From a virus: a DNA stretch of 64,000 nt. Positions 4,699 to 41,500 of this stretch are shown piece after piece. A program made the translations under genes and the position numbers. Within the stretch, counting starts at the first letter, position 1; each line of letters starts with the position of its first letter. The notes under the pieces were generated by a model. It did not search any database. It was not told the origin of the DNA and saw nothing but the letters and a program-made list of their open reading frames with translations. The DNA is taken from IMG/VR virus record IMGVR_UViG_3300047666_001259, positions 1 through 64,000 of that record; one strand, written 5' to 3'.

Positions 4699-5052
4699 TT
4701 ATTTGGATTTTTTGAGAATCTTCTCGATTATTTCAGATTTCACACTATATTTGAGAGCCAAATCATCTTCCATACGTATTTCACTCACTATTGTAGGGTG
4801 TTGCATAGCTCCTTCAGTCCTTACAGCTACTATTCTCGGTTCTCCTTGAATTCTCATATACTCTAATTTTAGAGGGACATCTTCAAACTCTATTTTAGCT
4901 TTTGAGTAAACCTCACCACTCTCGTCTTCTTGAAGAAATTTTTTGATCAAAATATTACCCTTTAAACTGTAGTGACACTTAAGGCGTTCTTCTTTAAACT
5001 CAAAGTAATCAACAAGAAAATTGTTCTTATCGTAAATGAAATAATTATTCAT
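4699..5052 (-). CDS. Hypothetical protein
   Basis: Start MNNYFIY (5052) overlaps the upstream stop. Confidence 0.65.
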   Translation of the reverse strand: MNNYFIYDKNNFLVDYFEFKEERLKCHYSLKGNILIKKFLQEDESGEVYSKAKIEFEDVPLKLEYMRIQGEPRIVAVRTEGAMQHPTIVSEIRMEDDLALKYSVKSEIIEKILKKSK

Positions 5053-7411
5053 CTTCAAAACCTTGCCAGTTATCAGACTTATCAACTGATTCGTTAACCG
5101 ATATATCTAAATTATCAGTTGTTCCGTCACCATTTAACTTTATATCGTTCAATGGCATGTAAGAGATATCGTTCTGGGTCATCCAGTCCATTACAAGCAC
5201 TCTCACACGATCTGAAGCTAGTTGGTTGTGGTAAGACTTCAGTTGATGGAATTCAAGCCCTGTATAGGCATTATAATTGAATCCAATAGTAAATCTACTC
5301 ATTTCCCCTTTCGGAATACGAGGAGACTCATCAACTAGCTTTGCAACTAGGTAATATCCAGAACTTACTTTGTTTCCGTAGTTACCTGCCGAGTGAGACA
5401 TTTCCTCACCCTCTGCAATAAAGTCTTGTACGTTATCTAAAATGATAACTCTGATATTTCCTGTATATTCTGGGTTCTCTTCAAGATACTTAAACTTGGT
5501 AGTAAACTTGGTGAACGGACTTTCTCCGCCATACTCTTGTTTAATGAAAGCGTATCTTGTAACCAAGTTATCATGATACTTCTTAAGTTTATCAAAATCC
5601 TTAATCTTATTGAAATACTTCTTACGATCATAATGCTTCGCTTGATCTGGTTTTTCAGCCAACATCTGATTGAACTCTTCAAGCATCAATAAAGCATCAT
5701 CATAAAAATTCCAATCAAAATCTCTAATCAATTCATAGTTTGTTTCGATCTCATCATCCGTCTTTGATAAGTCTGACCCCTCTTCTAATCTGTATCTCCC
5801 AAGAGTTTTTTGTCTTGCAAAAGATGTTGTTAAAGAAATCACTTGATCTAATTCTCTTAAATCCATTTTCTCACGGAAGTATATTCCTGTATTCTCATCA
5901 ATCAAATGCTTTAAGATGTCGATCTCATATTTATTCAAAATATTGATCACCTCATGCTTGTCATAGAATTTAAAATATTTCAGGAGACTTTTATAATCAG
6001 AGAAGTTTCTAAGCTTCTTGTATATCGATTTAGAAATAGAACCATCTTCAATAATTTCCATCACTGTGATACCTTCTCCTTTAGCAGTTTCTTTCTGCAT
6101 CCCTTTGTGAGCCATTTTAAGTCTAGTATTCTCGGAAGCTTTATCAATCTCTTTTTGATTTCTTACTTTCAAAACAATTTCTTTTTCTTCCGCACCCTCT
6201 TGAACTACCAACTCTTCAGTTGTTATTTTTTTCTCAACAAATTCCGTCTTTGGAATCTCATACTCGACTTCTTCACCAGTTTTCTCATCGATTCTGGTTT
6301 TCTTTTCCATTACTACACGCTTCTGAGTCTTGCCGTCCTCATCAGTATATGTTTCCATAACATTCTTCTCCACCTGAATAGTTTTAACTGTTTCTACGGT
6401 CTTCATCAAAGTTTTGGACTTGTAGACGAAATCGTGTACATCCCTATTATCTGCATCGATGTAATCATTCAGTTTATCTACATAAGTCTTTGTCAAGAAA
6501 TTGAAAATTCTTATTGGTTTAGTAATTTTCTCATCCTTCATGATTTGTTCATCTGGTAATTCACATTCCCTAATTAAATCAAACAAGAAGATAGGACTTT
6601 TTGTTAAGGCGATAGTTGAAAGATTTGAATATCTAAGAATAGAAAATAATATGATCATGATTTTAGAAATCTCATCGATCCCTGAAGTGTTCTTAATCTC
6701 TTGTAGAAGTCCACCGACAATATCAATATTACTTGTGTCACTAACAATGTCACATAAGTTATTAACAAACATATGTAAATGATGGAATCCAAAAATAATC
6801 TTGATCTCTGTTCTGAAGAAAGTTTCTATTGCCCCAGCCACGTCTTTCAGTTTTACTTCCCTAAATTTATCATCTTCAAATGATTTATAGAAAATTTGTT
6901 TGGTTTCTTTATCAACTCTTAATTGTCTATATGAAAGCTCAAACTCAATCTTCTCACCCATTGATCCTTGGGTAGTCAGTTCGGTTCCTTTTACATCTTC
7001 AATTAAAGAAACAACTTTAGGGTACACTTTCCAATAAAACAGATTAATCTCTTTATCATCTTGTTTAGTGTTAAATCCTGTAGCAAAATTTTCATCCGTA
7101 TAAAAAAGTCTTTTCTTATTTTCGGGAATCAAGTAGTTTGTGTTACATGATGGGCAGATAGCTCCATCGTTCATCGTTCTTCTTACGTCACCAAATATCC
7201 TTTCAAATTCTCCTAAGAAGTTATCATAATTACCGTTGGCGTATACAGTTTTATCATCATTGATTCCAGACACTTGTTCGCTAGATACATTATTTACGAA
7301 GTTGGTTCCACAATTGCAGAAAAATTTCTCTCCCGCTTCAGTGGATTCCGTGTAAGAAAACCTTTGAGTAAAGGTTTGTAGCTCTTGGATTTCTGATATA
7401 TTCAATTTCAT
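5045..7411 (-). CDS. PcfJ-like domain protein with N-terminal Zn ribbon
   Basis: C-terminal FIAEGEEMSHSAGNY...RFTIG...HQLKSYHNQ follows the PcfJ pattern EG..M.HCV..Y..TI..Q...N; N-terminal CNCG and CPSC. Confidence 0.65.
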   Translation of the reverse strand: MKLNISEIQELQTFTQRFSYTESTEAGEKFFCNCGTNFVNNVSSEQVSGINDDKTVYANGNYDNFLGEFERIFGDVRRTMNDGAICPSCNTNYLIPENKKRLFYTDENFATGFNTKQDDKEINLFYWKVYPKVVSLIEDVKGTELTTQGSMGEKIEFELSYRQLRVDKETKQIFYKSFEDDKFREVKLKDVAGAIETFFRTEIKIIFGFHHLHMFVNNLCDIVSDTSNIDIVGGLLQEIKNTSGIDEISKIMIILFSILRYSNLSTIALTKSPIFLFDLIRECELPDEQIMKDEKITKPIRIFNFLTKTYVDKLNDYIDADNRDVHDFVYKSKTLMKTVETVKTIQVEKNVMETYTDEDGKTQKRVVMEKKTRIDEKTGEEVEYEIPKTEFVEKKITTEELVVQEGAEEKEIVLKVRNQKEIDKASENTRLKMAHKGMQKETAKGEGITVMEIIEDGSISKSIYKKLRNFSDYKSLLKYFKFYDKHEVINILNKYEIDILKHLIDENTGIYFREKMDLRELDQVISLTTSFARQKTLGRYRLEEGSDLSKTDDEIETNYELIRDFDWNFYDDALLMLEEFNQMLAEKPDQAKHYDRKKYFNKIKDFDKLKKYHDNLVTRYAFIKQEYGGESPFTKFTTKFKYLEENPEYTGNIRVIILDNVQDFIAEGEEMSHSAGNYGNKVSSGYYLVAKLVDESPRIPKGEMSRFTIGFNYNAYTGLEFHQLKSYHNQLASDRVRVLVMDWMTQNDISYMPLNDIKLNGDGTTDNLDISVNESVDKSDNWQGFEDE

Positions 7412-7457
7412 CTTTAATAGTAGTTTTGTTGAATATAAAAACAAAAATCATAAAAAC

Positions 7458-7492
7458 AAAAAAAGCCTACTCGTTAAAGTAGGCTTTTTTTT
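7458..7492. terminator. Rho-independent terminator, bidirectional
   Basis: A7-GCCTAC-8 nt loop-GTAGGC-T8. Confidence 0.85.
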
Positions 7493-7510
7493 AATATTGT
7501 TGTGTAAGTC

Positions 7511-8176
7511 TTAAATCAAATCTTTGATCTTTCTTGCTTCGTTAATAGCGAAGTCAATTAGTTCTTTTTTGTTTAACTTACCTTCTGGCATTTGAATAGC
7601 ATCAGAAATTCTTGGCTCTGTCTCCTTTACTGAAGAATCAGGAGCTGACTCTTTAGCAACTGCTTTCTTCTGTCCAACAGTAGTAGCTTGGCTTCCTACT
7701 CCTTCCGATCCAGCTTCAACATAAGTTTTAGTACCTCCGTCTATCTCTCTGTCCATTGAGTTCATTTCAGCTTCACCATTCTCATCAAACGGAGCGCCTA
7801 AATCTGCTTTAGGTTGATCAGTTTTTGAAGTAGCATCTTTATCTTTCATACCAGCAGTAGCTGATTGGTCAGACTTAAGCTCTCCTCCAGCTTCTACCTT
7901 AACAGCAGCAGAGATGTCACCATCTGAACCTTGCTCTTTATCCATTGTGTTCATGGTCACTTTCGTAGCATCGCTAGTAGCAACGTTTGCTGACTTAGTT
8001 TCAGTAGCTGAAACTTTAGCAACTGGCTTAGCATCTGCTCCGCTAACCATTTTATTCATCTTGACTTCGGTAGGGTCTCCGTCAGACTTCATATCGGCTT
8101 CAATCAACTGCATAATTTTCTTATCAACGTATTCGTTTAATTGCTCGTTGGTTACCTTTATAGTTTTCTTTGACAT
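7511..8176 (-). CDS. Low-complexity repeat protein, putative prohead core/internal protein
   Basis: MNxM(D) three times and VEAG twice; N-terminal IKVTNEQL..LIEA; TATTTA at 8212-8217. Confidence 0.6.
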   Translation of the reverse strand: MSKKTIKVTNEQLNEYVDKKIMQLIEADMKSDGDPTEVKMNKMVSGADAKPVAKVSATETKSANVATSDATKVTMNTMDKEQGSDGDISAAVKVEAGGELKSDQSATAGMKDKDATSKTDQPKADLGAPFDENGEAEMNSMDREIDGGTKTYVEAGSEGVGSQATTVGQKKAVAKESAPDSSVKETEPRISDAIQMPEGKLNKKELIDFAINEARKIKDLI

Positions 8177-29038: not shown

Positions 29039-29154
29039 TTCTTAACTTCTTTGATTTATTCTAAATAGAACTCAAAAAAAATAATACCTTTAATTTAAAA
29101 AGTAAAGGGTTTACTTTATTTTTGAGAATTATTTATACCAAAGAACTATTTCTT

Positions 29155-31650
29155 ATGCCATTTGATTTACCAAATACAGCGAGTACATTATCTCCCCATT
29201 TTTCACCGGGAGAAGACCTAAGATACTTTCCAACCACAGATCGTTCGATATCTACCGTTGGTGATTATCGTGTGCAAACTAATTTTGATCCAGAGTCAAT
29301 AGATCGAGTAATTAGAAATCTCAGTTTCGATCAATACGAATCTTTAAACTCAATGAGCATCACAGGAGCCACTTCTGCTGATACCATTAATGTTTTCGTG
29401 CAATCACAAGAACTTAATCTTGATTTTCAAAGACCTGAAAACAACACCTATTTTTCAAGCTTTAAAACAGAGGTGATAAAAGGAATAGCAGAAATAATTT
29501 CAGACTTTCCATACGCTATCTATGTAACTTCAGGCTCTACTAGCGCCAATACTCTTTATGATTTCTCTAAGGTCTATGACTTAAATACAAATGAAATTCA
29601 ATCTACTTTTAAGGTCTCAGCCGATACTATTGTCAACCAAGGAAACGTTTTACTTAATTCTGGGTATTCTTATAACAACAACAGTTTATTTAATAATTTC
29701 AATGATTACGTTGTTCAGTTTAAAAATGGAGAAGACGCAAACACTGGGTCAACTGTTCCAAGATTAACAATCCTAAACTATTCATTCTCAGCTGGAGTTT
29801 ATTTAGAACTCACAGTTAAAGGAGACTTTTTAACAGGTCAAACGTCAGGAACATCATTCTCTGAATTCTATATTGCTCCCTCTCCTAAGATAGTTTATAA
29901 ATTTAAGAAGGATATTACTCCTCTGCAAAATCAACTTTTCTTTAACGGAAAATACAAAATTGCAAACCCACTTCTAAATGATGGCTCTACGATTGAAGTA
30001 ACTTATACTTGGCCGAAGACCATTGATGGATACAACCCTAATACTTACGGAACGGAGTTCGATGTTTGGAAAGATAGCATGCTAGACTTTGCTGAGGACT
30101 TAGATTGTGACAAGACTGGAATTATGGCTCAGACTATGATCCCTGATTCTTATTTCGAATTTGATAGTGATAGTGATATCTACAAAAATGTTACCCAAGC
30201 TCAAGCTCAGGAGTTTGATATCATCAAACAATATATTGATGGTTTAGTTTATGCTCACACAGCAACATATGACGGAACAGAGTCTGTCCCAGACAAGTTC
30301 ATCTTTAAACTATCCCAGTTACTAGGGTTTGACTTATCTCCTCAATTCAATGAGGTAGACCTATTGCGTTATCTTTCGGGAGATGAAGATGGTTTAGATA
30401 ATTCAGGAGCTTATTATAACTTGCAGCTTTGGAGAAAGATTTTAACTAATATTATTTGGCTTTTAAAGAGAAAAGGAACTAGAGAGTCATTGCTTTGGAT
30501 ATTCCAGCTTATCGGTGCGCCAGAGTGCATGATTAGGTTAGATGAGATTGTATATGATATCTCTTCGGCAGCAGCTTCTGGAAATACAGGTACTTTATTA
30601 GAGAATGAATTATCTTTTAAAGTAAAAACAAACGGATATCCAGATTATAATGTTTCTCCACACATTTTTCAAGAAGGTGGAAGTGGTCGTGGAAATGGTA
30701 TGAAGTATATTGATTTCTGGAGACCACAGTTTGATCCAGTTTTGAGATTTGACAACATCAAAACCCAATCTGGAGATACAGTATATTTCGGAACTGAAAA
30801 TATTATAAACTCTAAACAACTATATGCAGCACTTGATCCAGCTCAAGCAATCGAGTGCAACGTACATGAGTGGTATCAATTAACTGGTACAGTTTGGAAC
30901 TACTGTTATTCAGATATTTCTATGTGTGATTGGGATTATCCTTTCCAATGGATTCCTAGTGATCCATATGCAGCAAAACCAACTGGAGCTACGGAACATA
31001 TTTCTGGAATGACATATCAAGAATATATGACATTCTTGTTTGCTAACAATGTTGACCCACAGACTAGAAAAACGAATGATCAAAATCATACAACTTTCTA
31101 TTATCCAGCTCTGAAGAATATTTACTTGAATTATTCTTACTTAAACAATCCACAATCGAACAGGATTACAATGAGTAAGCTTGAAAACTTTATAAAGTTA
31201 ATTGAAAGGAAGTTCTTCAATTATGGAAAACAACTTTTACCAGCCACATCAATTTTGTTGGCTCAAGGAGTGATTTATAGAAACACAGAATTTCATAGAG
31301 AAAGGTTTATCTATAAAGAAGGAGTTAATAAAGGTTCAGAATTTAGAGTAGACGTGTCTCAGCCAGAATCTCTTATCGAAATCATCGAGGTTACCAATGA
31401 GGTAGTCCAAGAGATTGAAGGAAACGTTATTTCGATTGAAGTCTCTAATGAAATTGTTCAAGAAATTGAAGGAAATGTTATCCCTATTGACGTGAGCAAT
31501 GAAATTACGATTGAAATTGAAGGAACAATTAATGGATATAATTTGATTGTAGAGATTAATGATCTTACTGAAGATTCAGAAGTTGTCTCGGAAGTAACTG
31601 CTACTCAATTATTAGAAGACTTATCTAATATCATCTCTGATCCTGAATAA
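29155..31650 (+). CDS. Baseplate wedge protein (P2 gpI/T4 gp7-like)
   Basis: LSQLLGF...WRKIL.NI.WLLKRKGTRESL.....IG; LLPAT; three acidic C-terminal repeats (EVxNEIVQEIEGNVI); TATTTA at 29130-29135. Confidence 0.7.
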   Translation: MPFDLPNTASTLSPHFSPGEDLRYFPTTDRSISTVGDYRVQTNFDPESIDRVIRNLSFDQYESLNSMSITGATSADTINVFVQSQELNLDFQRPENNTYFSSFKTEVIKGIAEIISDFPYAIYVTSGSTSANTLYDFSKVYDLNTNEIQSTFKVSADTIVNQGNVLLNSGYSYNNNSLFNNFNDYVVQFKNGEDANTGSTVPRLTILNYSFSAGVYLELTVKGDFLTGQTSGTSFSEFYIAPSPKIVYKFKKDITPLQNQLFFNGKYKIANPLLNDGSTIEVTYTWPKTIDGYNPNTYGTEFDVWKDSMLDFAEDLDCDKTGIMAQTMIPDSYFEFDSDSDIYKNVTQAQAQEFDIIKQYIDGLVYAHTATYDGTESVPDKFIFKLSQLLGFDLSPQFNEVDLLRYLSGDEDGLDNSGAYYNLQLWRKILTNIIWLLKRKGTRESLLWIFQLIGAPECMIRLDEIVYDISSAAASGNTGTLLENELSFKVKTNGYPDYNVSPHIFQEGGSGRGNGMKYIDFWRPQFDPVLRFDNIKTQSGDTVYFGTENIINSKQLYAALDPAQAIECNVHEWYQLTGTVWNYCYSDISMCDWDYPFQWIPSDPYAAKPTGATEHISGMTYQEYMTFLFANNVDPQTRKTNDQNHTTFYYPALKNIYLNYSYLNNPQSNRITMSKLENFIKLIERKFFNYGKQLLPATSILLAQGVIYRNTEFHRERFIYKEGVNKGSEFRVDVSQPESLIEIIEVTNEVVQEIEGNVISIEVSNEIVQEIEGNVIPIDVSNEITIEIEGTINGYNLIVEINDLTEDSEVVSEVTATQLLEDLSNIISDPE

Positions 31651-31652
31651 AC

Positions 31653-32177
31653 ATGACAAATAAATATTCAATAAAAAAAACAATATATAATTCCATTAGG
31701 AAAATTATATTTGAATCCGAAAGTAATAGTTATTCTTATAAAGTTTACCACTCGTCTAATGAAAAATTTAATCATTTTAAATTAGAAAAAATTACAAATT
31801 TAGGAGGCGACTTGTATGGTAAAGGTTTTTATTTCACTGATAATTTGAATTATTCAGAAAATTTTGGAAAAATAACTTATGAATGCTTAGTAACTTTAAA
31901 AAACCCTCTTAATCTAACTAATTCAAATTCAAAAAATCAACTAACTCAGTTGGTTAATTACATTAATGATATTCCTGAAAAAGACTTAGAATACATAAGT
32001 GGGTCTATTCAGAACAACAGCTTTACAACTGCTTTCAGAAAAATAAGAGATTTCATTTCATTTGAATCACTTCACGAATTGTACGATGGAGTAATTGGGT
32101 GGTCAGAAGAAGGTGGGAGAGAATACATTGTATATAATCCTAGAAACATTAAGATAATAAATTTTACGATCTTATAA
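31653..32177 (+). CDS. ADP-ribosyltransferase-like protein (ART-PolyVal-like)
   Basis: VYHSS...F..F, YGKGFYFTD, V.LKNPL, YDGVI, EYIVYNP..IK. Confidence 0.7.
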   Translation: MTNKYSIKKTIYNSIRKIIFESESNSYSYKVYHSSNEKFNHFKLEKITNLGGDLYGKGFYFTDNLNYSENFGKITYECLVTLKNPLNLTNSNSKNQLTQLVNYINDIPEKDLEYISGSIQNNSFTTAFRKIRDFISFESLHELYDGVIGWSEEGGREYIVYNPRNIKIINFTIL

Positions 32178-32185
32178 TAATTTTG

Positions 32186-32193
32186 TAACTTTG
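32186..32193 (+). promoter_or_regulatory. Bacteroidota -7 element (TAACTTTG) heading the cassette array
   Basis: TAnnTTTG 4 nt before ATG 32198; TTTA 19 nt upstream as a -33 variant. Confidence 0.65.
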
Positions 32194-32197
32194 CTTC

Positions 32198-32383
32198 ATG
32201 GAGCAAGTAGGGCAAGTACAAATATTTAGTCAAACGGACGACCCCGAAACACTACAACGTGAGATGAATGATTGGTTGGTTGATTGTGATGTGACAGTTG
32301 TTCGTGTCCTACAAACCCAATCTGGTAGAATGGATACCACCTTGACTATCACTTTATTTTACGTGAATAATCCCGAAGATTAA
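32198..32383 (+). CDS. Small hypothetical protein; its stop codon abuts the array
   Basis: 61 aa; QIF...LQREMNDWL...V..V.QT...TLFY pattern. Confidence 0.7.
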   Translation: MEQVGQVQIFSQTDDPETLQREMNDWLVDCDVTVVRVLQTQSGRMDTTLTITLFYVNNPED

Positions 32384-32451
32384 CGGTTTGTGTATGTACC
32401 GTTTGAGGTACGAAAATGGAATATAAACAGTGTTATAAAATTAAATTGATT

Positions 32452-32676
32452 ATGGGAATGTTTGATACAGTAATAGTTCCGTGTCCAGAATGTGGAACAA
32501 AAGAAGAATTTCAGAGCAAAAGTGGTGAATGTTTTTTACAAGAAGTAGAATTAAAAGACTGTCCAAGTGATATATTGTATGACGTGAATAGACACTCGCC
32601 ATACACTTGTTGTGATTGCGGTACTTTATTCGAGGTAGACACAAAATCTAAAGAAAGTACTAAAGTAGTGTTGTAG
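32452..32676 (+). CDS. Cassette gene: small Zn-ribbon protein (MGMFD..CPECG..FQSK)
   Basis: CPEC, C..C; in module B1; alternative ATG at 32416 lies inside hairpin A1. Confidence 0.75.
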   Translation: MGMFDTVIVPCPECGTKEEFQSKSGECFLQEVELKDCPSDILYDVNRHSPYTCCDCGTLFEVDTKSKESTKVVL

Positions 32677-32729
32677 ATAACGATGTACCTTTTTAAAAGC
32701 AAAACGGGCGAGTGTAAAATTTGAAAATT

Positions 32730-32882
32730 ATGGATGATAAAACGATAGCTTATTATTTACAGCACAAAGTAGAAGTAAAAGAGAATAGCTTAAAACCTAT
32801 GGATAAACGTCATAAAATACCTAAGCGCATAAAGAAGGAAATAAAAGAACTAAAAGCAATGATTGAACACTTGACGGAATAA
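32730..32882 (+). CDS. Cassette gene: 50-aa basic protein in the loop of hairpin A2
   Basis: Not in the track; MDDKTIAYYLQHKVEVKENSLKPMDKRHKIPKRIKKEIKELKAMIEHLTE. Confidence 0.65.
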   Translation: MDDKTIAYYLQHKVEVKENSLKPMDKRHKIPKRIKKEIKELKAMIEHLTE

Positions 32883-33038
32883 TTTTTTGTTTTTATACAT
32901 TGTTGTGCTTAACGAAGTGGTGTTTTAATGAAGCACAACGGTTGCAAATATGAGAAGTAAATCTTTTCATTAAAAAATAGACAAAGTAAGATTTATTTCT
33001 TATATTTAGTATCAAAAATTTTATACAAATTAAAAAAT

Positions 33039-33260
33039 ATGGAAAATACATTTGAACCAAGAAAATCCATCTCCGAAAGATATAGTTTGGAGAATATGTC
33101 TAAACAAAGAGGAATGTCTATTGATGACTATAAGTTAGAAATAGACAAACAACTCAAAATGAAACAGGATATTATTGATAAACAACTATCAAAAGGATGG
33201 ACACAGGAACAATCTGAAACTCACGCTATGAGGTGTTTGTATATTGATGGATTTTCTTGA
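33039..33260 (+). CDS. Cassette gene: hypothetical protein
   Basis: 73 aa; flanked by a perfect 15-bp inverted repeat at 33010-33024 / 33285-33299. Confidence 0.7.
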   Translation: MENTFEPRKSISERYSLENMSKQRGMSIDDYKLEIDKQLKMKQDIIDKQLSKGWTQEQSETHAMRCLYIDGFS

Positions 33261-33346
33261 CCGACATTCAAAGATTAAGAACTCATAAAATTTTTGATAT
33301 TGAATATAACGCTGAGTATATGAAACGTAAATTTTAAACAGACAAA

Positions 33347-33586
33347 ATGAATAAAACAGGATATTATATATTAGGAATACTGAGCGGTTTGACCCTATAC
33401 AAACTAATTTATGTTTTATATACATTGTTGTTGTTAGTTGATTTTACGCCTTTATACCCTTACTTAATAGATATAAACTATTATTGCGAAAAGTATACAA
33501 CTAAAAATATTGCTGAAATAGGTGCAATACTTTTGATAGTAATACCAATAGCAATATTTGTGATTAAAGAGCGCAGACTTAAGTAA
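33347..33586 (+). CDS. Cassette gene: membrane protein spanning the A4/B4 junction
   Basis: Starts in the A4 loop, reads through GTT 33427, stops in the B4 terminal repeat. Confidence 0.65.
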   Translation: MNKTGYYILGILSGLTLYKLIYVLYTLLLLVDFTPLYPYLIDINYYCEKYTTKNIAEIGAILLIVIPIAIFVIKERRLK

Positions 33587-33688
33587 AATCTATTAACTAC
33601 AATGACTACTGTATGTGGCGTAGCTTTTCGCTATGACATATAAAGTTTGTTAGCATTAGTACGGATTAATAACTAAAAACTTAATAAG

Positions 33689-33880
33689 ATGACAAAAAGA
33701 GAAAGATTAAAAGAGTGGATTAAAACTCTAAACGAAGAACAAAAAGATACTGTGATACTTGAACTTACAGACTTTGCAATAGATGCCGAGTATGTTGGTT
33801 TTTATGATACTACGAAAGTACCATATTATGATTGTACTGGAGAAAATCTAGATGGAACTGAAAGCGATGATGAAGATTAG
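33689..33880 (+). CDS. Cassette gene: hypothetical protein
   Basis: 63 aa filling module B5. Confidence 0.7.
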   Translation: MTKRERLKEWIKTLNEEQKDTVILELTDFAIDAEYVGFYDTTKVPYYDCTGENLDGTESDDED

Positions 33881-33931
33881 TATTACTGCTAACGTATAGT
33901 AATATGATTAGTGCGGATTAATAACAAGAAA

Positions 33932-34099
33932 ATGGCAAAGACACGAGAACAAAAAAGAATTGAAAATGCGGATAAAGTTTGTAGAGAACTTAGATACCAA
34001 ATAGTAGAATATGGACTAATAGGCGATTGGGATGCAATTAATAAGCATTTTAATTCTTGGATGAATAATGCTAAAAAATCTAAATACGAAAGACCTTAG
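33932..34099 (+). CDS. Cassette gene: hypothetical protein
   Basis: Start MAKTREQ after an A-rich leader; in module A6. Confidence 0.7.
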   Translation: MAKTREQKRIENADKVCRELRYQIVEYGLIGDWDAINKHFNSWMNNAKKSKYERP

Positions 34100-34136
34100 C
34101 ATTAGTACGGATTATTAACAGATAAATTATATAAAA

Positions 34137-34322
34137 ATGGAAGGAATAAAAGTAACATTAGTGCCAAATCAAGAAACAGACTACCAAGCGTTTAGATTTG
34201 ATGAATTAGGTATTACTTATTTTGAATGGTCAAAAATGAGTGAAGATGATAAAAGAATCTTGGTGTTAGAAAACATTATGGAAAATATATGCTCTCACGT
34301 TGACTCGATGGATGAGTATTAA
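34137..34322 (+). CDS. Cassette gene: hypothetical protein
   Basis: 61 aa filling module B6; stop inside the terminal repeat. Confidence 0.7.
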   Translation: MEGIKVTLVPNQETDYQAFRFDELGITYFEWSKMSEDDKRILVLENIMENICSHVDSMDEY

Positions 34323-34383
34323 TGCTAACGGATATGGTTAAGGTTAGTTGCGGGTAGAATATTAATGAATTAAATAAACAAAA

Positions 34384-34584
34384 ATGAAAGCAGATTTAGA
34401 ACAGTTGGAAAAAATGCAAGAAGACTTATTTAGGCAACAATGTGATTTAGATATACAGAAAGCAATGGTAAAACACTTTATAAAAAAGAAAGAAGACGAG
34501 CTATTAACTTTAACCGATGTTGTGGACAGTTTGCCAAGTGATAGACCTAAATTAAGACCATCTTACATTGGCGATAAAGACTAA
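34384..34584 (+). CDS. Cassette gene spanning the A7/B7 junction
   Basis: The right arm of A7 is translated as LLTLTDVV; GTT 34519 is a Val codon. Confidence 0.65.
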   Translation: MKADLEQLEKMQEDLFRQQCDLDIQKAMVKHFIKKKEDELLTLTDVVDSLPSDRPKLRPSYIGDKD

Positions 34585-34663
34585 AAAAAATAAAACAATA
34601 CGGTGTAATTGTCTACAACACCGAAATAAACTCTTGTGCGTAGCATAGAGTTTATTGAATGTT

Positions 34664-34687
34664 AAAGTGCGTTTTTATGCACTTTTT
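34664..34687 (+). terminator. Probable terminator closing the array, convergent with 34686..35558
   Basis: AAAGTGC-gtttttat-GCACTTT-TT. Confidence 0.6.
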
Positions 34688-35558
34688 AGCTATTTAAAAC
34701 AGTGTTAAATGTTTGAGTTAAATCAGGGTTTATGATTCTCTGCTTGTAATCAAGTTCTCCCGAAGTAAATTGAGATTTTCTAGTCAATAGATTGAATTCC
34801 CTAAACAAGAACCCATTTTCATCAAATACTCTGTATTTACCACTTGCATTATCACGAATAGTATTCCCATAGAGAGCGTATGAGAGCGTCTTAACAGTTT
34901 GATCGACCATTTCGATCTGAATCACTGTAGGATCGAAGGAAGTGGCTGTAATGAGTATCTTCTGCCCTGCATTACCTAAGTTCACTTGTTGTGAATTTGA
35001 AATAAGGTTTCTTTCATCAGGAGTTAGAGTTAAAAACAAGTTTGTTCCGTTTGGATCAAGAACATAAGTGCTTGAACTAGCATTGGCGTTGTTGTTGTTT
35101 GTAGAAACAGAAACAACCTCAGATGTAGTAACAATCCTGTGAAAGTTTTTTGTCTTTACTCCATTTTCATCAAAGTATTCGATCATGTAACCGATCAACG
35201 ACCCGGGACTCTGAAACTGAAGTTTTGGAATAATAATTCCTTTCTTAGAAATCTGAACCTCAGTATCTGTATTTGTTGTAATCATCGAACAATCAATAAT
35301 CGTTGTTTCAAACGACTTAGGTTTAATAAGCACAGTGTAGAAACCTAATCTGTTAAAAATTGAAGCAGGAAGCCTCAATTCGTAGACACCATCTGCTCCG
35401 ATCAGTTTCTTAAATTCATTATCTGATATTGCACCAAATAATGGAGCCATCTGAGGGTTCGTTGGAGTCTCTCTAGAGGCTGTATATGAATACAAAACAT
35501 CAACATCATTGCTGTTGACATTTGAAAGTACTTTTGTTCCGTATATTCCTACACTCAT
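34686..35558 (-). CDS. Virion structural protein (baseplate region)
   Basis: GVYELRLP...F..LGFYTVLIKP; TATTTA at 35574-35579. Confidence 0.65.
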   Translation of the reverse strand: MSVGIYGTKVLSNVNSNDVDVLYSYTASRETPTNPQMAPLFGAISDNEFKKLIGADGVYELRLPASIFNRLGFYTVLIKPKSFETTIIDCSMITTNTDTEVQISKKGIIIPKLQFQSPGSLIGYMIEYFDENGVKTKNFHRIVTTSEVVSVSTNNNNANASSSTYVLDPNGTNLFLTLTPDERNLISNSQQVNLGNAGQKILITATSFDPTVIQIEMVDQTVKTLSYALYGNTIRDNASGKYRVFDENGFLFREFNLLTRKSQFTSGELDYKQRIINPDLTQTFNTVLNS

Positions 35559-35591
35559 TTCTTTGTTTTTTTATAAATATCTGTTTAAAAA

Positions 35592-37988
35592 TTATCCACC
35601 CGTGCTTCCATCAGTTGTTTCAGATTCATCCGTAGGGTCGAATAACTCATATGGAATACTTTGCCAAGAGCCAGCCTCTCCATCAAAACCAGTTGTTATT
35701 GGACAAATAGTACTCAATAAAGTAGATAATCTAAAGTTAAAATCACTATAGTTAGTGTCATTACTATAATCATCAAGTATCACAATTCCATTCATAGTTA
35801 TCTTATGCTTATGAATTTCACCTAAGAACGTGTCGGTGCAAAGACCTCCAGACTCATAAGTAACCGCCATGTTAGTGTAAGTTGTTTGTAGATTATATCT
35901 ATTCACAAACGGGTTCACTGGAGCAGTTGTAGTAAATGTTCCTAAATTTAGAGTCTCGCCATCTTCTGATCCCTTCATCACAAAATTGTGGAATCCATTT
36001 TCAATCCCACTCACTGGAATAGTTGGGTGAATATATCTTAGCTTCATTCCATAATCTGCTCTTAAATAAATTGGTCTATTAAAAGTAAACTCCCCTAATT
36101 GAACAGTAGTCTCTCCTAGTATAGCGTTTGTGGGTAAGAAGAATTGAAATTCATTTCCTGTCACAGGAATAATAAAATCCTCTCCCGCAGGAACTGTCTG
36201 TCCGTCAAAAATAATATCATCCCCATTATTGGTAATGATCATTTCAATTTTAGAAACAAAATCTCCATCACTATCGAATCCAAAATTAAAATCAGGGAAA
36301 CTAGAGAAGCTTTGATCAAAATCTTGAGTTGCCTCATTATATTGATGACCCATTTTAACTAACCAAACATTCGATTCTTGATTTGTAGCTTCAGATGAAA
36401 GCCTCCTTAAGTGAGTAGCACTATTACCCTCTGTCATTCTACCCTTTTGCCTATAAAGGTCACCTAGATTGAAAACTACAGGCTTTGTAATTATAGTAGC
36501 ATCTACAATATTAACAGCTCCTTGAATTGGGTATACAGAAGTATCAAATTCCAATCCGAAAGGATTCTCTAAACTAACTGTAACAGATTCAATAAACTCT
36601 GGAATTTGATCAGCAAGTAATTGAATATCTACTGTCTTAGTTAATTCCCCAATTCCCCAAACAACCCTCTGAGGGCTTATTAACCTAAAGTCTGCTTCTT
36701 GGATAGCTATATTTTGTGCTGAATTTAAGTAAGAAAAAACAACATCAACACTTTCTCCTCCGAGAGAGCTAGTTTGATCTAAAGTTAATTCAAGTCTAAC
36801 TAAATCACCTTCTTGCGCATTTAATGTGAACATCAAATCACCCCTTAGTGTTTGATACATTTGCCCAAGGTCTCCAGTAAATCCTACTTTTCTAAATATT
36901 GTGTTATCAATAATTACAGCATTATGCTCTAAATTGTCACCTCCATATACATTTAAGAGAGAAGTTAACTTTATAATAATACTTTCAGGTTGTTCAACAA
37001 CCAAATCGTTATTAACAGTAAGATTTATAGTTTTAAATTGTTCTCCTATACCCCATTGAATTAAGAAATTTTCTCCAATAATAACATCATTAGGATCAGC
37101 GGTTACATATTCGACAACAACCTCAACTTCTTCTATCCCTCTGATAGAAGGTTGAGAAAGAGTTAAGGGTATGGGATACCCAGCGCCTTCGATATACTGC
37201 CCTCTGTTTTCAAGGAAAGATACACCTAGCGCATTGTTATTAAACACTACGTTTTCGTTTGTTTCTAAATTTGTATCTACGAAACACTGAAGAATACTTG
37301 AAACAACGTTGGATTCACCCGGGTTGCTTGGAGAAACATTTTCTAATATTTCAAAATATTCAGCATTCAAGTCAATAATTCCTCCCACATAAGATTCAGC
37401 CAGAATTGGCTGAATCTGAACATCAATCACATCATTACAAACTTTATAAGTCTCAATAGCTGTTTTGTCGTAATTCTTGTAGAGTTTTATCGGAAGATAA
37501 TAACTATCCTCATTCGTGTATTCATACAAATAATCACGAGTAGAGTCAATTCTACTTGCGCCCCCAATGCTAGCTGGCGCACCCGAAGGTCTCACAAACT
37601 CATTCCCATCCCAAGCAAAACTATTGTCACTCACGATTATGTTAATTGTGTTTTTTAATTGATCATCAATAAACACGGTTGGAGAAGGAGTTCCTCCAGC
37701 TACGGTTGTTTGAAAAAATTGGTTAAAAACAATTGAAAGCTTTCGGTCATCATAGAATATTTCCTTCCTCTCTGCTTCGTTAGAATTTTCGTTTAGATAT
37801 TGAATGAAATTATCGATAACAATTTGATTTTGAGAATTGTTCAAATACCCACGAATGTTAAACTCACTAGTAATACCTCCACCCAAACTTTGAGTATAGA
37901 CATAGTAATCATCACTTAATTCCAATTCGCTAACTGTAATTGGAGAGCCTGTAAAACGTGGGTTTAAGAAAAGGTCAAACTGTTGCAT
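35592..37988 (-). CDS. Structural protein with Calx-beta-like domains
   Basis: Two copies of W.IGE..KT..I....D...E..ES..I.L. Confidence 0.7.
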   Translation of the reverse strand: MQQFDLFLNPRFTGSPITVSELELSDDYYVYTQSLGGGITSEFNIRGYLNNSQNQIVIDNFIQYLNENSNEAERKEIFYDDRKLSIVFNQFFQTTVAGGTPSPTVFIDDQLKNTINIIVSDNSFAWDGNEFVRPSGAPASIGGASRIDSTRDYLYEYTNEDSYYLPIKLYKNYDKTAIETYKVCNDVIDVQIQPILAESYVGGIIDLNAEYFEILENVSPSNPGESNVVSSILQCFVDTNLETNENVVFNNNALGVSFLENRGQYIEGAGYPIPLTLSQPSIRGIEEVEVVVEYVTADPNDVIIGENFLIQWGIGEQFKTINLTVNNDLVVEQPESIIIKLTSLLNVYGGDNLEHNAVIIDNTIFRKVGFTGDLGQMYQTLRGDLMFTLNAQEGDLVRLELTLDQTSSLGGESVDVVFSYLNSAQNIAIQEADFRLISPQRVVWGIGELTKTVDIQLLADQIPEFIESVTVSLENPFGLEFDTSVYPIQGAVNIVDATIITKPVVFNLGDLYRQKGRMTEGNSATHLRRLSSEATNQESNVWLVKMGHQYNEATQDFDQSFSSFPDFNFGFDSDGDFVSKIEMIITNNGDDIIFDGQTVPAGEDFIIPVTGNEFQFFLPTNAILGETTVQLGEFTFNRPIYLRADYGMKLRYIHPTIPVSGIENGFHNFVMKGSEDGETLNLGTFTTTAPVNPFVNRYNLQTTYTNMAVTYESGGLCTDTFLGEIHKHKITMNGIVILDDYSNDTNYSDFNFRLSTLLSTICPITTGFDGEAGSWQSIPYELFDPTDESETTDGSTGG

Positions 37989-38517: not shown

Positions 38518-41500
38518 TTATATTTGATAGGCAAAACCACCTAAACCATTTCTTCCGACATTTGCATCTCCAACCAAAAGATTAGGTACAATTGTTTGCG
38601 CTGTAATATAAGTGCCTAACACATCTAGTTGAATTTGTGATAATTCCAACCCAGCTAACCCCAACTCTTCTTCATCGCTAATAAAGAAGTTATTGCTTGT
38701 ATTTCCAAAAGGATTGGCGAATTCCATACCGAAGTTAGGATCATATTCAGCAAAATTAAACCCTCCTGTATTATTAGAACCTCCCCCTATTTCCTGAATA
38801 ATATCAACAAAACCATCAAGAAGTTGTTGAAATAAATCAGCAGTGTCCTCAACTGGTGTGTATTGATCGATATTTGTAACAGCAAAATCTTGAGCTAAAA
38901 ATTTTGATCTCATTCTAAGCTTATCAACTTCAATAAGCTCTCCATCCACTAAGCCTCCAAAGTTTCCATCACTATCCCCAACATCAATAACCTCCTGCAT
39001 ACTTGGGTTTCCAGCCAATGTCTCACCTTCTGAGTTATAAACCCAAACTTGATCACCATTTTCCCACCATATACTTGCATCACCATGTAAAGTGTTGGAA
39101 CCACCAGCTCTTCCAATTTTATAAAGAACATCATTGTTCAGTTTAAAATCAAAACCCCTATATCCATCTACTTCTGAAAAGTCAGCGAAAGGAATATGGA
39201 CATCTATAACTTTTTTAGTTGGAAAAGATACTATGTTCTCATCTGTACAGGGAATGACTTCAACTGAATTTGAACTCCAAAAAGAAGATTCTAAAATTTC
39301 TCCATATAGATTAAATCTGCCATAAGTTGTCAGATTTAATCTAGAGTTTGGCAAGATATTATCAGACAAAAGAGCTATGTGATTTATGTAAACTTTTTCC
39401 GAGAAAGGCATTGGAGTTCCAACATACCCTTGTTCACCTTCGTCTTCAATAAAAGTAGTAAGTATGTCTTCCGAATCAGGAATAACATTTCCTAATCCAT
39501 AAAAATTACCTCCGTTATAAATTGATCTATTCAAATAGAAGCACTCTTCATTTTCCTGATCGTAAGGAGTTAGTACGCTCCCTAACACATTAACAAGATA
39601 TTTATTTACACCTTCCTCAGAAGTTTCTAAGAAATCTGGAGGAACTACCATTGTCCTATATCCTTCTTTTGCAAAAGATATTTCATAATAACACTTTTGG
39701 TTTGCTGTGTTAGCGTATAGCTCAAAATTGACACCACTCTGACTAGAGGGGGTGTATTCTTGGATTGTTTCTAAAAGCCACCCTTCCACTGTAATTTCTA
39801 CCGTTAAGAATCCTCCACCATCTTTTGAAGAAAAGGTAATCGATGATTCATTATCATCAAAAGTTGCTTTAAAATCTTTCTCTAATCCCTGATTTTTAAT
39901 ATAGTCATATTGACCGCCATCAAGCTTTGCTTTAAACCTTACATAGTAGCTACTAAAGGCTCCCTCAGCATCAACAGGCAGTTTTGTTCCGTTAACAATA
40001 AAGTCTTTGTCTGCTGGGAAAAAATCATAATCATTAGGGTTTGTAGACCCAGTGTAAGTTGCCTTAATTTTATGAGGAACAAAATTATCGTAACTAATTT
40101 TCACTGGGAAACTCTTTTCTTCTCCCGCTAAAATCGCAATTTCCTGATCTAAACCAAAAACTGGATTCACTGGAATTACTGAATTTATCCCAGTGTTTCT
40201 AATTTTAACAATCATAGTGTCGCAGGGAAAAAATTCAGCGTTCACCCCTTGCCAAGAAGCTCCGTTCCTTAAAACTGAAGGGCTAGAATAATTAAACACA
40301 TCATTGTTAGAGAAGTTTGAGTTATAAGCCTTTCTTCCTTCGAAGAGTAGCCTGTTTTTGTAAACATCTCCAATATTGAATTTAACCTTACCTCTTTCGG
40401 TTTGATCTAAAATGTAAAGCTGAGAAACTGGAATAATTCCATTTTCTAATCTGAATTTTTCAGATAATGAAAAATTAAACTCTTCTTTAAGCTCAATTTC
40501 AACATCATCATTAACTATTATTTGTAAATCCTTGCTTATCTCATTTTCTTCCCAAGACATAGAATAAGGGAATTCAATAGACTCCCCATTTAGCAAAACG
40601 TCCATATCAGGAACAGAGCCAATATTGTAGTTGATTATGTCAGAGAAGGTCTCATCTGCATTATCTGCATTAGGATCATAAGAAGCATCAAGAGTTATTC
40701 TGTATCTTGTGTAATATTCATCACCTTCTACATCAGGGTTAAAGAAAGAAATTTCTTCCACATTAAGAATAACATGAGTTCCGATATAACTTCCACTACC
40801 AATAACTAAAGAGAAACCAGCCGTAACAATATCTAAAGCCCCAGTTGGAAGCGCTGTATAGAATGCAACATTGCCTCCAACATTTCTAAATAGTATTCCT
40901 TGAGAACCCTCTTCTCCCTCAAGAGTTTGCGATGCTACCTGACCAAAGTAATAAGAAAAATTCGTAGCAGGAGAAGCTAGGTTAAATAAACAAGTTTCAT
41001 TTCCGAAAGGAGATGCTTCGTTTAAATATATTTGCATATTGAACACTTGACCTTCTTCAATTTCATCACCAGTGGTTGAGAAAGAAATTTCTCTAGGTTT
41101 TTCTTCCTTAACGTCTAAATCCAATCTAATCCAATGCTTATTGAAAAAGAAAGAAAAATCGTTTTCAATTATAAGAGCCGACTCTCCAAAAGCATCAAAA
41201 TCAAATGTATTTGTTCCGTAAGAAACAAAATCTCCATCAACATTATAAAAAACAAGCTTTTGTTCCCAAGACTGATCCTCATAATAAAAGTCATCTGATA
41301 CTAATCGAATATAAGCAGAATCGAATGGATAGTTGTTTAATTCAATAAGATATTTTCCATTTTTTCTTCTAAAAATGTTATCTGTATCAAAAGAGTAAGT
41401 ACTACTTTGAGTTGTGGAATATAAATCAGAATAATTTGCATCTGAATATATCTCAAGAGTCAAGTTGTTGCAATCAATAATTGTAGAGGATAGTTTTCCG

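What the first reader, a model, noticed from the sequence alone, without database searches (positions are those of the whole stretch)
33308..34619. ORFs that start inside a hairpin loop and read through the putative crossover, giving swappable protein halves
Seen: ORF 33347-33586 starts in the A4 loop, translates the right arm (IYVLYT), crosses GTT 33427 and stops at a TAA in the B4 terminal repeat. ORF 34384-34584 starts in the A7 loop, translates the arm as LLTLTD, crosses GTT 34519 and ends in B7. An ATG at 32416 inside A1 is also in frame with the B1 gene. ORF 32730-32882 lies wholly within the A2 loop. Inference: recombination at the junction would swap N- and C-terminal halves, creating new chimeric microproteins rather than only reordering genes, which canonical integron cassettes do not normally do.
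Basis: partly seen in the sequence, partly recalled or inferred. Interest (0 to 1): 0.8.

Follow-up and report, generated by a model that had tools for sequence, protein, structure and literature searches.

The report
Hairpin-bounded phage gene modules shuffling protein halves
In an accessory-gene island of a marine Flavobacteriia-type phage, small genes start inside long hairpins and read in frame across the hairpin arm, and for one of them nature has joined its front half to about 60 different back halves at exactly that point, which makes this a recombination junction that builds new chimeric proteins.

Summary
Window 32168-34701 is a 2.5 kb island of alternating hairpin modules on the coding strand. 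A relative in two metagenomes lacks the whole island.

- **Structure.** ORF 33347-33586 and ORF 34384-34584 both start in an A-hairpin loop, translate the 3' arm, cross GTT and end in the B module. The stems are supported by duplex energies, by compensatory changes, and by non-Watson-Crick pairs that are all G.T on the coding strand.
- **ORF 34384-34584: swapping strongly supported.** Its front half (73-100% identical) occurs with about 60 unrelated back halves. In 72 virus-contig ORFs, 42 front and 45 back families reassort at ..LTLTD|V... Nucleotide identity drops to random right after GTT. Both halves are under purifying selection.
- **ORF 33347-33586: swapping not supported.** All 43 homologues keep both halves, and the whole A4+B4 unit moves as one piece.
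- **ATG 32416.** The in-frame start is probably incidental.
- **Mechanism.** No integrase, resolvase or Y1 transposase was found in the carrier phages. No integron integrase was found in 301 genomes of the order of a Flavobacteriales assembly, taken as a proxy for the hosts. I favour short-homology or structure-guided recombination at conserved structured boundaries, like T4 PeSLs. Related sites in Polaribacter phage P12002L were published as attC sites lacking an integrase.
- **Earlier scan notes** concern this same genome only.

The parts
32168..34701 (+). Array 1: island of alternating hairpin modules (A units and B bodies) carrying about 10 small ORFs, set between two convergent genes
   Evidence: A 37 kb marine contig and an ice-metagenome contig, about 90% identical in the flanks, join 32167 to 34702 with 31 other letters between. 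ORFs. Stems.
33308..33429 (+). A4 unit: AAC, 5-nt spacer, 5' arm 33316-33333, 72-nt loop holding the start codon, 3' arm 33406-33423, GTT at 33427
   Evidence: 18-bp stem with 2 G.T pairs. Duplex -19.7 kcal/mol. The minimum-energy fold contains the stem, z -2.4.
33347..33586 (+). ORF of 79 aa, a small protein with two hydrophobic helices. It starts in the A4 loop, reads through the arm and GTT, and stops in the B4 3' arm
   Evidence: 43 collinear homologues. One source names a homologue 'uncharacterized membrane protein'.
33425..33605 (+). B4 body with terminal inverted repeats 33425-33447 and 33583-33605
   Evidence: Duplex -18.7 kcal/mol. Homology with L090-L092 ends at 33602, which corresponds to ..CTACAAC in L091 and L092 (..CTGCCAAC in L090).
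34327..34521 (+). A7 unit: AAC, spacer, 5' arm 34336-34351, conserved leader, start codon and front-half coding in a 148-nt loop, 3' arm 34500-34515, GTT at 34519
   Evidence: The 5' part is 83% identical to Polaribacter phage P12002S. The 3'-arm 18-mer is found in 74 virus contigs and the 5'-arm 19-mer in 29. Covariation.
34384..34584 (+). ORF of 66 aa made of a front module (residues 1-45, helical, ends LTLTD) and a back module (21 aa)
   Evidence: The front module occurs with about 60 other back modules. Back-module relative in L051 with another front module.
34518..34620 (+). B7 body with inverted ends 34518-34535 and 34602-34620, ending in AAC at 34617-34619
   Evidence: Duplex -22.7 kcal/mol.
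32677..32907 (+). A2 unit with ORF 32730-32882 wholly in the loop
   Evidence: Duplex -18.2 kcal/mol between 32676-32705 and 32884-32907. ORF.
32381..32436 (+). A1 unit (weak outer stem, small inner hairpin) containing the ATG at 32416, in frame with zinc-ribbon ORF 32416-32676
   Evidence: Duplex only -10.4 kcal/mol. Zn-ribbon profile matches start at residue 12-13. High multi-copy depth in metagenomes.
32942..33012 (+). A3: compact unit without an ORF (20-bp stem, 21-nt loop)
   Evidence: 95% identical over 82 nt to a 462 kb uncultured phage. Homology begins at AACGG and ends at the last base of the 3' arm, just before GTT in that phage. Duplex -22.3 kcal/mol.
32999..33310 (+). B3 body: ORF 33039-33260 flanked by a 25-nt inverted repeat
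   Evidence: Repeat I4, 92% complementary. Both non-Watson-Crick positions are wobbles on the coding strand (read from the sequences). Duplex -24.0 kcal/mol.

Best explanation
**What the array is.** It is a chain of two kinds of palindromic module on the coding strand.
- A units run from ..AAC through a spacer, a 5' arm, a loop and a 3' arm to GTT.
- B bodies run from GTT.. to ..AAC and have their own inverted ends.
- These boundaries are conserved, strand-specifically folding elements shared by unrelated marine Flavobacteriia-type phages. Modules are exchanged between phages at them.

**The A7 type.** Here the loop carries a conserved leader, a start codon and a helical front module of about 45 residues. 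This module reads in a fixed frame through the 3' arm and GTT into a B body that has no start codon of its own. Any exchange at the junction therefore produces an in-frame chimeric small protein.

**Shown.**
- The anatomy of the modules.
- Strand-specific pairing with covariation.
- Natural reassortment of front and back halves at the junction.
- Purifying selection on both halves.

**Inferred.**
- The exchange is made by short-homology or copy-choice recombination between co-infecting phages at the conserved segments (about 75 nt and about 21 nt). Stalling or cleavage at the hairpins may help. It is not made by a dedicated integrase.
- The hairpins are kept because they act in the single strand, most likely in the mRNA (processing, stability or attenuation), as the stem-loops of T4 PeSL cassettes do.

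**ORF 33347-33586.** It has the same anatomy but is an ordinary two-helix membrane protein. Its whole A4+B4 unit moves as one piece.
For: **Reassortment at the junction**
- 72 read-through ORFs in virus contigs fall into 42 front clusters and 45 back clusters, in 50 combinations. Seven front clusters have 2-3 back partners and four back clusters have 2-3 front partners.
- Pairs with the same front half are 97-100% identical in nucleotides up to GTT and random after it. Pairs with the same back half become identical only from the 3' arm onward.
- A protein search with no nucleotide pattern gave the window's front half (73-100% identical) joined to 61 back-half clusters.
- Back modules end exactly at ..AAC, and A units begin there.

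**Translation across the junction**
- All 72 ORFs use the frame reading EQLTLTDV, although a second frame of the junction is also open.
- pN/pS is 0.25 for front halves and 0.34 for back halves.

**Pairing is real and strand-specific**
- In true array stems the non-Watson-Crick pairs are all wobbles: the totals are 28 G.T, 12 T.G and 3 C.A, and the 3 C.A (with 5 of the T.G) come from two spurious poly-T stems.
- In the rest of the genome the count is 15 A.C/C.A against 11 wobbles.
- The inner stem covaries: TTGC/GCAA in 17 units, TTTT/AAAA in 4; 0 of 5000 permutations reach the observed pairing.
- An orthologous pair about 92% identical differs by three compensatory arm changes.

**The island is accessory**
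- A close relative lacks it, and the boundary units are multi-copy in the community.

**No site-specific recombinase found**
- None in G000, in the complete P12002S genome, or in the whole 462 kb record LR756500.
- No match above the IntI family cut-off in 301 genomes of the order of a Flavobacteriales assembly, taken as a proxy for the hosts.

**Precedent**
- Shuffling at conserved promoter/stem-loop cassettes in T4-type phages (PMC2839356).
Against: - The enzyme and the strand or molecule that folds (RNA or single-stranded DNA) are not determined. No RNA run holds the stretch.
- 21 nt is short for ordinary homologous recombination. The two G.T pairs sit at fixed positions in every stem family, which looks like a recognition feature for a dedicated protein.
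- One site from the sister phage P12002L is recombined by IntI1 in E. coli (PMC9892861).
- Most evidence comes from metagenome assemblies. Misjoins at repeats are conceivable. However, the same combinations recur in independent samples, and a cultured phage shows the same architecture.
- No sigma-70-type promoter or terminator signal stands out.
Confidence: 0.6

Rival explanations
1. This is a dedicated, structure-specific single-strand recombination system. It resembles an integron but with inverted polarity. An as yet unrecognised phage or host enzyme binds the folded coding-strand hairpin and exchanges strands at AAC and/or GTT. It excises and inserts A+B cassettes and sometimes swaps bodies at GTT.
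For: - The R''-L''-loop-L'-R' layout has conserved AAC and GTT, an unpaired spacer, and cassette-specific complementarity between the two ends of each body, as expected from a split stem.
- Two G.T pairs sit at fixed positions and enforce one folding strand.
- Similarity breaks to the base at AAC| and after GTT.
- Logan contigs of the marine run X11 end at 33308 and 33602.
- The same unit type was predicted as an attC site in phage P12002L, and another P12002L site was recombined by IntI1.
Against: - No tyrosine or serine recombinase or Y1 transposase was found in the whole genome records of two carriers or in G000.
- No integron integrase was found in 301 genomes of the order of a Flavobacteriales assembly.
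- The breakpoints coincide with the edges of conserved segments, which homologous exchange would also give.
- The P12002L site of this unit type (attC1) was the one whose junction could not be verified.
Confidence: 0.27
2. This is a canonical integron cassette array lacking its integrase. It would be serviced by a host IntI that cuts the bottom strand at G|TT.
For: - GTT and AAC core boxes, stop codons inside ..TAAC, and methyltransferase cargo in the Polaribacter phages.
- The published classification of P12002L.
Against: - Wobble pairs favour the top (coding) strand. The bottom strand would carry A.C mismatches.
- Genes start inside the site, which lies upstream of its gene.
- IntI did not exceed the family cut-off in any of 301 genomes of the order of a Flavobacteriales assembly.
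- The exact junction 18-mer occurs in bacterial genomes only at about chance level: 17 hits, against roughly 17 by my own estimate (2 x 596 Gb / 4^18).
Confidence: 0.08
3. Nothing is exchanged. These are ordinary diverged paralogues with a conserved central motif, or the chimeras are assembly errors, and the hairpins are chance in AT-rich DNA.
For: - Single-sequence folding of A7 is not better than shuffles.
- The AT-rich 16-mer of A4 gives many chance hits.
Against: - Front halves that are 100% identical are joined to unrelated back halves.
- The same combinations recur in contigs from different samples.
- Covariation and wobble asymmetry.
- Stem energies lie far in the tail of random pairs.
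Confidence: 0.03

Closest known systems
attC sites in clusters lacking an integron integrase (CALINs) in virulent phages, including Polaribacter phage P12002L (Qi et al. 2023, PMC9892861)
   Same: - Tandem imperfect palindromes with ..AAC and GTT.. cores between same-strand accessory genes such as methyltransferases, and no integrase.
- P12002L_attC1 shares the ..TTTTAGCCATTGTTAGGC end with a unit in this genome's second array.
   Different: - The paper reports two predicted sites, not the full alternating A/B architecture.
- Here the folding strand is the coding strand.
- The site precedes its gene.
- Loops hold start codons, whole ORFs or, in P12002S, an HNH gene.
- The 3' arm is translated.
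- No IntI was found in the order sampled as a host proxy.
PeSL regulatory cassettes of T4-type phages (Arbiol et al. 2010, PMC2839356; Comeau et al. 2014, PMC4122927)
   Same: - Short conserved intergenic cassettes with stem-loops (containing G-T pairs).
- They flank small genes of unknown function in hyperplastic regions.
- They mediate insertion, deletion and replacement by recombination between cassettes.
   Different: - PeSLs are compact, non-coding, and contain a sigma-70 promoter.
- Here the two arms can lie 70-450 nt apart, one arm is coding, and the exchange recombines protein halves.
- No promoter was identified.
Polymorphic proteins with a constant N-terminal part and exchangeable C-terminal modules after a conserved demarcation motif (CdiA VENN, Rhs), and shufflons (named from my own knowledge, not tested here)
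   Same: A conserved, in-frame junction sequence at which many unrelated C-terminal modules are found behind one N-terminal part.
   Different: - These are proteins of 66-110 aa in phages.
- The front part also varies (42 clusters).
- The junction is one arm of a nucleic-acid hairpin that covaries with a non-coding partner.
- No toxin/immunity signature was found.

Membership tests
Integron attC site / CALIN | Inverted core boxes R'' (..AAC) and R' (GTT..) at the two ends of the site | tested here: met
   AAC lies within 13 nt upstream and GTT within 9 nt downstream of every array stem. Module edges lie exactly at AAC| and GTT|.
Integron attC site / CALIN | Inner imperfect inverted repeats (L''/L') separated from the cores by an unpaired spacer | tested here: met
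   Stems of 13-20 bp, with a 5-8 nt spacer on the 5' side and 0-5 nt on the 3' side.
Integron attC site / CALIN | The bottom strand (antisense to the cassette gene) is the strand that folds and recombines, marked by extrahelical bases | tested here: not met
   The non-Watson-Crick pairs in true array stems are all G.T/T.G on the coding strand, so the bottom strand would carry A.C mismatches. No conserved bulges were seen.
Integron attC site / CALIN | The site is non-coding and lies downstream of its cassette ORF | tested here: not met
   A4 and A7 lie upstream of the body they travel with. They contain the start codon, and their 3' arm is translated. Compact units such as 32942-33012 are non-coding.
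Integron attC site / CALIN | An integron integrase in the element or the host | tested here: not met
   PF00589 is absent from G000, P12002S and LR756500. TIGR02249 exceeded the cut-off in 0 of 301 genomes of the order of a Flavobacteriales assembly. G000 is only about 31% complete.
Integron attC site / CALIN | Recombination by IntI at G|TT | not testable with these tools
   From the literature only: P12002L_attC2 is recombined by IntI1, while attC1, the unit type seen here, was not verified.
Integron attC site / CALIN | Match to the attC covariance model (IntegronFinder/HattCI) | not tested
   The model is not available here. Rfam gave no match in 31000-36000.
PeSL-type regulatory cassette | Host-type early promoter inside the cassette | tested here: inconclusive
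   Sigma-70-like sites number 20, against 18.3 expected. The scan does not cover Bacteroidota promoters. A conserved A/T-rich leader precedes the ATG.
PeSL-type regulatory cassette | Stem-loop between small genes of unknown function in a hyperplastic region | tested here: met
   Stems. The island is absent from a close relative. The small ORFs have no Pfam or PHROG family.
PeSL-type regulatory cassette | Module exchange by recombination between cassettes | tested here: met
PeSL-type regulatory cassette | Circular excision products (mini-circles) | not testable with these tools
   Only contigs were available, not raw reads.
Polymorphic constant-N / variable-C protein systems | A conserved in-frame demarcation motif behind which C-terminal modules are exchanged | tested here: met
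   ..LTLTD|V.., with 61 back-half clusters behind one front half.
Polymorphic constant-N / variable-C protein systems | Toxin domain with a cognate immunity gene | tested here: not met
   No toxin or immunity family was found in the window's array ORFs. Many back halves are Cys-rich and look like zinc ribbons.

The most novel reading that the evidence does not exclude
Marine Flavobacteriia-type phages carry a cassette system of a new kind that needs no integrase. Top-strand hairpins act as portable expression adaptors, each holding a leader, a start codon and a helical front module in the loop. These adaptors capture gene bodies that lack a start codon, in frame at GTT. The result is a natural combinatorial generator of two-module proteins, served by an undiscovered structure-specific recombination activity.
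Probability: 0.3. Interest if true: 0.9.

Novelty: new variant of a known kind. Interest (0 to 1): 0.78.

Why it matters
Phage accessory regions are the main reservoir of genes of unknown function, and how new ones arise is an open question. Here one conserved, structured junction of about 21 nt joins two independently reassorting coding modules in a fixed frame. Dozens of natural chimeras are documented across ice, marine and sediment metagenomes and one cultured phage.

- It gives a concrete mechanism for making new small proteins by exon-like shuffling in viruses.
- It offers a cultivable model (Polaribacter phages P12002S/L) in which recombination, RNA folding and translation across the junction can be tested.
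- It revises the published reading of these sites as ordinary attC sites: opposite folding strand, site upstream of the gene, coding arm.
- If a dedicated enzyme exists, it would be a new single-strand recombination system.

Tried and rejected
- **Known RNAs.** Rfam at E<=1 over 31000-36000 gave no match. No tRNA or tmRNA in the window. So no known ribozyme, intron or small RNA.
- **Promoters and terminators.** The sigma-70 promoter and intrinsic terminator scan showed no enrichment.
- **Protein families.** Pfam and PHROGs on the ten array ORFs gave only the flanking ADP-ribosyltransferase and weak zinc-ribbon hits. The ESM Atlas was uninformative for the 66-aa ORF.
- **Intron or bypass reading.** Removing the A unit does not restore an upstream frame in general, so I dropped it.
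- **Frame constancy as a stop-codon artefact.** Rejected only after finding that a second frame of the junction is open.
- **RNA runs.** No RNA holder is listed for the stretch.
- **A4 16-mer scan.** It was mostly chance hits, including giant-virus contigs. About 19 were true units.
- **Junction 18-mer in bacterial genomes.** 17 hits, about what I estimate for chance. The one Flavobacteriales assembly contig with three copies (tandem-duplicated cassettes) looks like phage DNA.
- **Relatives of ORF 32416-32676.** None found in virus contigs.
- **The look-up of encoding contigs.** It was closed, so the context of the truncated homologue P0043 could not be read.
- **Single-sequence folding of A7.** Not significant. 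Its antisense strand folds worse, -19.3 against -25.8 kcal/mol.
Full report
**Setting**

The window is the first 64 kb of a 105,908-bp virus record judged about 31% complete, so probably a very large phage. The DNA is 31-37% G+C, with long minus-strand genes, probably structural (not checked against family libraries), on both sides of the finding.

Between two convergent genes lies a plus-strand island of about ten small ORFs. The gene at 31653-32177 is an ADP-ribosyltransferase of the ART-PolyVal family. The other convergent gene is 34686-35558.

Contigs of two metagenomes show a relative about 90% identical in the flanks. It joins 32167 directly to 34702 with 31 other letters between. The whole island 32168-34701 is therefore accessory. 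A second array of the same kind lies at about 80.1-84.2 kb of the same record.

**Checking the observation**

The island is a chain of tandem hairpins on the coding strand.
- A units consist of ..AAC, a short spacer, a 5' arm, a loop, a 3' arm and GTT.
- B bodies begin with that GTT, end in ..AAC, and carry their own inverted ends.

For A4 the arms are 33316-33333 and 33406-33423. For A7 they are 34336-34351 and 34500-34515.

Duplex energies of ten consecutive stems (A2, B2, A3, B3, A4, B4, A5, B5, A7, B7) run from -14.4 to -24.0 kcal/mol. For random segment pairs of the window the 1% quantile is -15.9 and the 0.1% quantile is -19.4. A1 is weak at -10.4.

ORF 33347-33586:
- starts in the 72-nt A4 loop;
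- translates the 3' arm;
- crosses GTT at 33427;
- stops at a TAA inside the 3' arm of B4.

ORF 34384-34584 does the same in A7 and B7. ORF 32730-32882 lies within the A2 loop.

Single-sequence folding alone is not persuasive: z is -2.4 for A4 and -0.24 for A7.

**The hairpins are real and strand-specific**

I searched for stems allowing Watson-Crick pairs and any transition mismatch, and required AAC/GTT flanks.
- The result was 16 stems in 20 kb of arrays (this genome's two arrays plus the Polaribacter phage P12002S array), against 10 in 198 kb of the remaining genome counted on both strands.
- The array totals are 28 G.T, 12 T.G and 3 C.A. The 3 C.A (and 5 of the T.G) come from two spurious poly-T stems, so the true array stems have no A.C or C.A.
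- The background has 15 A.C/C.A against 11 wobbles.

Pairing is kept by compensatory change.
- In P12002S the units before genes 0062 and 0061 differ by three double changes.
- An orthologous pair about 92% identical in the loop differs by three compensatory arm changes.
- Across 31 independent A7-type units the inner stem is TTGC/GCAA or TTTT/AAAA. None of 5000 partner permutations reaches the observed pairing.

The folded molecule is therefore the coding strand, either as RNA or as single-stranded DNA.

**Testing 'swappable halves': ORF 34384-34584**

The only phage-database DNA matches to the region are short boundary pieces.
- The A7 5' part is 83% identical to P12002S.
- The compact unit at 32942-33012 is 95% identical to a 462 kb uncultured phage. 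Homology starts at AACGG and ends at the last base of the 3' arm.

The 18-mer formed by the A7 3' arm plus GTT occurs in 74 virus contigs. The 5'-arm 19-mer occurs in 29.

In 72 of the 78 occurrences (73 of them in virus contigs, the rest in the P12002S record, the window and loci held from later scans) a complete ORF of about 70-110 aa reads through as ..LTLTD|V...
- The front halves form 42 clusters and the back halves 45, in 50 combinations.
- Seven front clusters have two or three different back partners, and four back clusters have two or three front partners.
- Pairs with the same front half are 97-100% identical in nucleotides up to GTT and random immediately after. Pairs with the same back half become identical only from the first base of the 3' arm.
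- Back modules end to the base at ..AAC in different downstream contexts, and A units start there.

A protein search that does not depend on the nucleotide junction found 187 relatives of the window's 66-aa ORF. Among the 120 best, the window's own front half (73-100% identical) is joined to 61 back-half clusters. Several of these sit behind a 100% identical front half.

The window's back half has a relative behind a different front half in L051. That front half recurs in L025 with yet another back half.

Both halves are translated sequence.
- pN/pS is 0.25 for front halves and 0.34 for back halves.
- All 72 ORFs use one frame, although a second frame of the junction has no stop.

**Testing 'swappable halves': ORF 33347-33586 and the others**

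Forty-three homologues, down to 56% identity, are collinear over both halves. The junction region is conserved as part of the first hydrophobic helix.

Three virus contigs and one marine Logan contig carry the stretch 33314-33602 as one piece in four unrelated contexts. The edges lie just after AAC plus spacer on the left and at ..CAAC on the right. For this ORF the cassette is the whole A4+B4 unit, and nothing suggests exchange at GTT.

Of about 19 genuine A4-type units elsewhere, 13 have no read-through ORF. They are followed by an empty B hairpin.

The ATG at 32416 is in frame with the zinc-ribbon gene, but three things speak against it as a start.
- Profile matches begin at residue 12-13.
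- The A1 stem is weak.
- In two A1-type copies elsewhere (one in array 2 of this genome, one in locus L052) the equivalent ATG meets a TAG in the GTT box.

**Mechanism**

No tyrosine recombinase, serine recombinase or Y1 transposase is detectable in G000, in the complete genome of P12002S, or in the whole 462 kb record LR756500.

The integron-integrase family does not exceed its cut-off in any of 301 sampled genomes of the order of a Flavobacteriales assembly that carries these cassettes, taken as a proxy for the hosts.

The junction 18-mer occurs in bacterial genomes at about the number I estimate for chance.

The observed breakpoints coincide with the edges of the conserved segments. These are about 75 nt from AAC to the start codon, and about 21 nt for the 3' arm plus GTT. 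Exchange within short homologies between co-infecting phages would give exactly this pattern. That is the mechanism shown for T4-type PeSL cassettes, which are also promoter/stem-loop units with G-T pairs in hyperplastic regions (PMC2839356).

I therefore favour recombination at conserved, functionally maintained, single-strand-folding boundary elements (confidence about 0.6).

A dedicated structure-specific activity remains a serious rival (about 0.27), for four reasons.
- The layout is attC-like.
- The two G.T pairs sit at fixed positions in every stem family.
- Each body's two ends are complementary well beyond the core.
- 21 nt is short for ordinary homologous recombination.

A canonical integron reading is unlikely. 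The strand, the polarity, the coding arm and the missing integrase all speak against it.

**Relation to what is known**

Qi et al. 2023 (PMC9892861) reported two predicted attC sites forming an integrase-less cluster in the sister phage P12002L.
- Their attC1 is a unit of the type seen here. It shares its 3' end with the unit at about 81.4 kb of this genome.
- Their attC2 is the spacer between P12002S genes 0051 and 0050, read on the antisense strand. IntI1 recombined it in E. coli.

The paper describes none of the following:
- the alternating A/B architecture;
- the coding-strand wobble bias;
- genes starting in the loops;
- protein-half reassortment.

The phenomenon works like PeSL-mediated shuffling and like polymorphic proteins with a demarcation motif, but it is a member of neither. 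I rate it a new variant of a known kind.

**Caveats**

- Most comparative evidence comes from assembled metagenomes. Misjoins at the repeats are possible in principle. However, the same combinations recur in different samples, the junction is far shorter than a read, and a cultured phage shows the same architecture.
- No expression data exist.
- The biochemical role of the small proteins is unknown. Many back halves are Cys-rich and look like zinc ribbons, and the front halves look helical.
- The scan's earlier notes concern this same stretch and the second array of the same genome, not other DNA.

Noticed in passing
window 31653-32177: The gene abutting the array is an ADP-ribosyltransferase of the ART-PolyVal family (E 4e-12). 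The array starts within its last codons.
   Followed up: partly
G000 about 80150-84200 (outside the window): A second array of the same A/B hairpin modules. It includes a read-through ORF with ..LSISGV.. and a unit that shares its 3' end with the published P12002L_attC1.
   Followed up: partly
window 32912-32930 and 34657-34683; G000 about 84180; many loci (e.g. L015, L090, L091): Small hairpins with variable, covarying stems and a conserved loop CGTTTTAATG (CGTTTTTATG at the array end). They form 'empty' B bodies and the terminal element of both arrays. This may be a terminator or a protein-binding hairpin.
   Followed up: no
L003 (P12002S) gene 0061, record 40975-41415: A complete HNH endonuclease domain sits in the 355-nt loop of an A unit and reads through the 3' arm (..LFINGV..) into a CxxC zinc-finger tail. 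A homing nuclease here could drive exchange at these units.
   Followed up: no
window 33932-34099: In the window this ORF has a 5' arm but no 3' arm. In a marine metagenome a 98% identical copy is followed by an intact 3' arm plus GTTG. The window copy has therefore lost its arm.
   Followed up: partly
window 31384-31485: Two tandem 51-nt repeats (73% identical) near the 3' end of the 842-aa ORF 29122-31650.
   Followed up: no
L192 (Flavobacteriales assembly contig), 4700-8000: Three tandem copies of an about 820-bp block of three cassettes, including an A7-type read-through ORF. This is either a real tandem amplification or an assembly artefact.
   Followed up: no
window 32309-32509: The A1 region has 7-fold excess contig depth in a marine metagenome (151 against 22). 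This unit type is therefore very abundant in other genomes, even though its outer stem is weak here.
   Followed up: no
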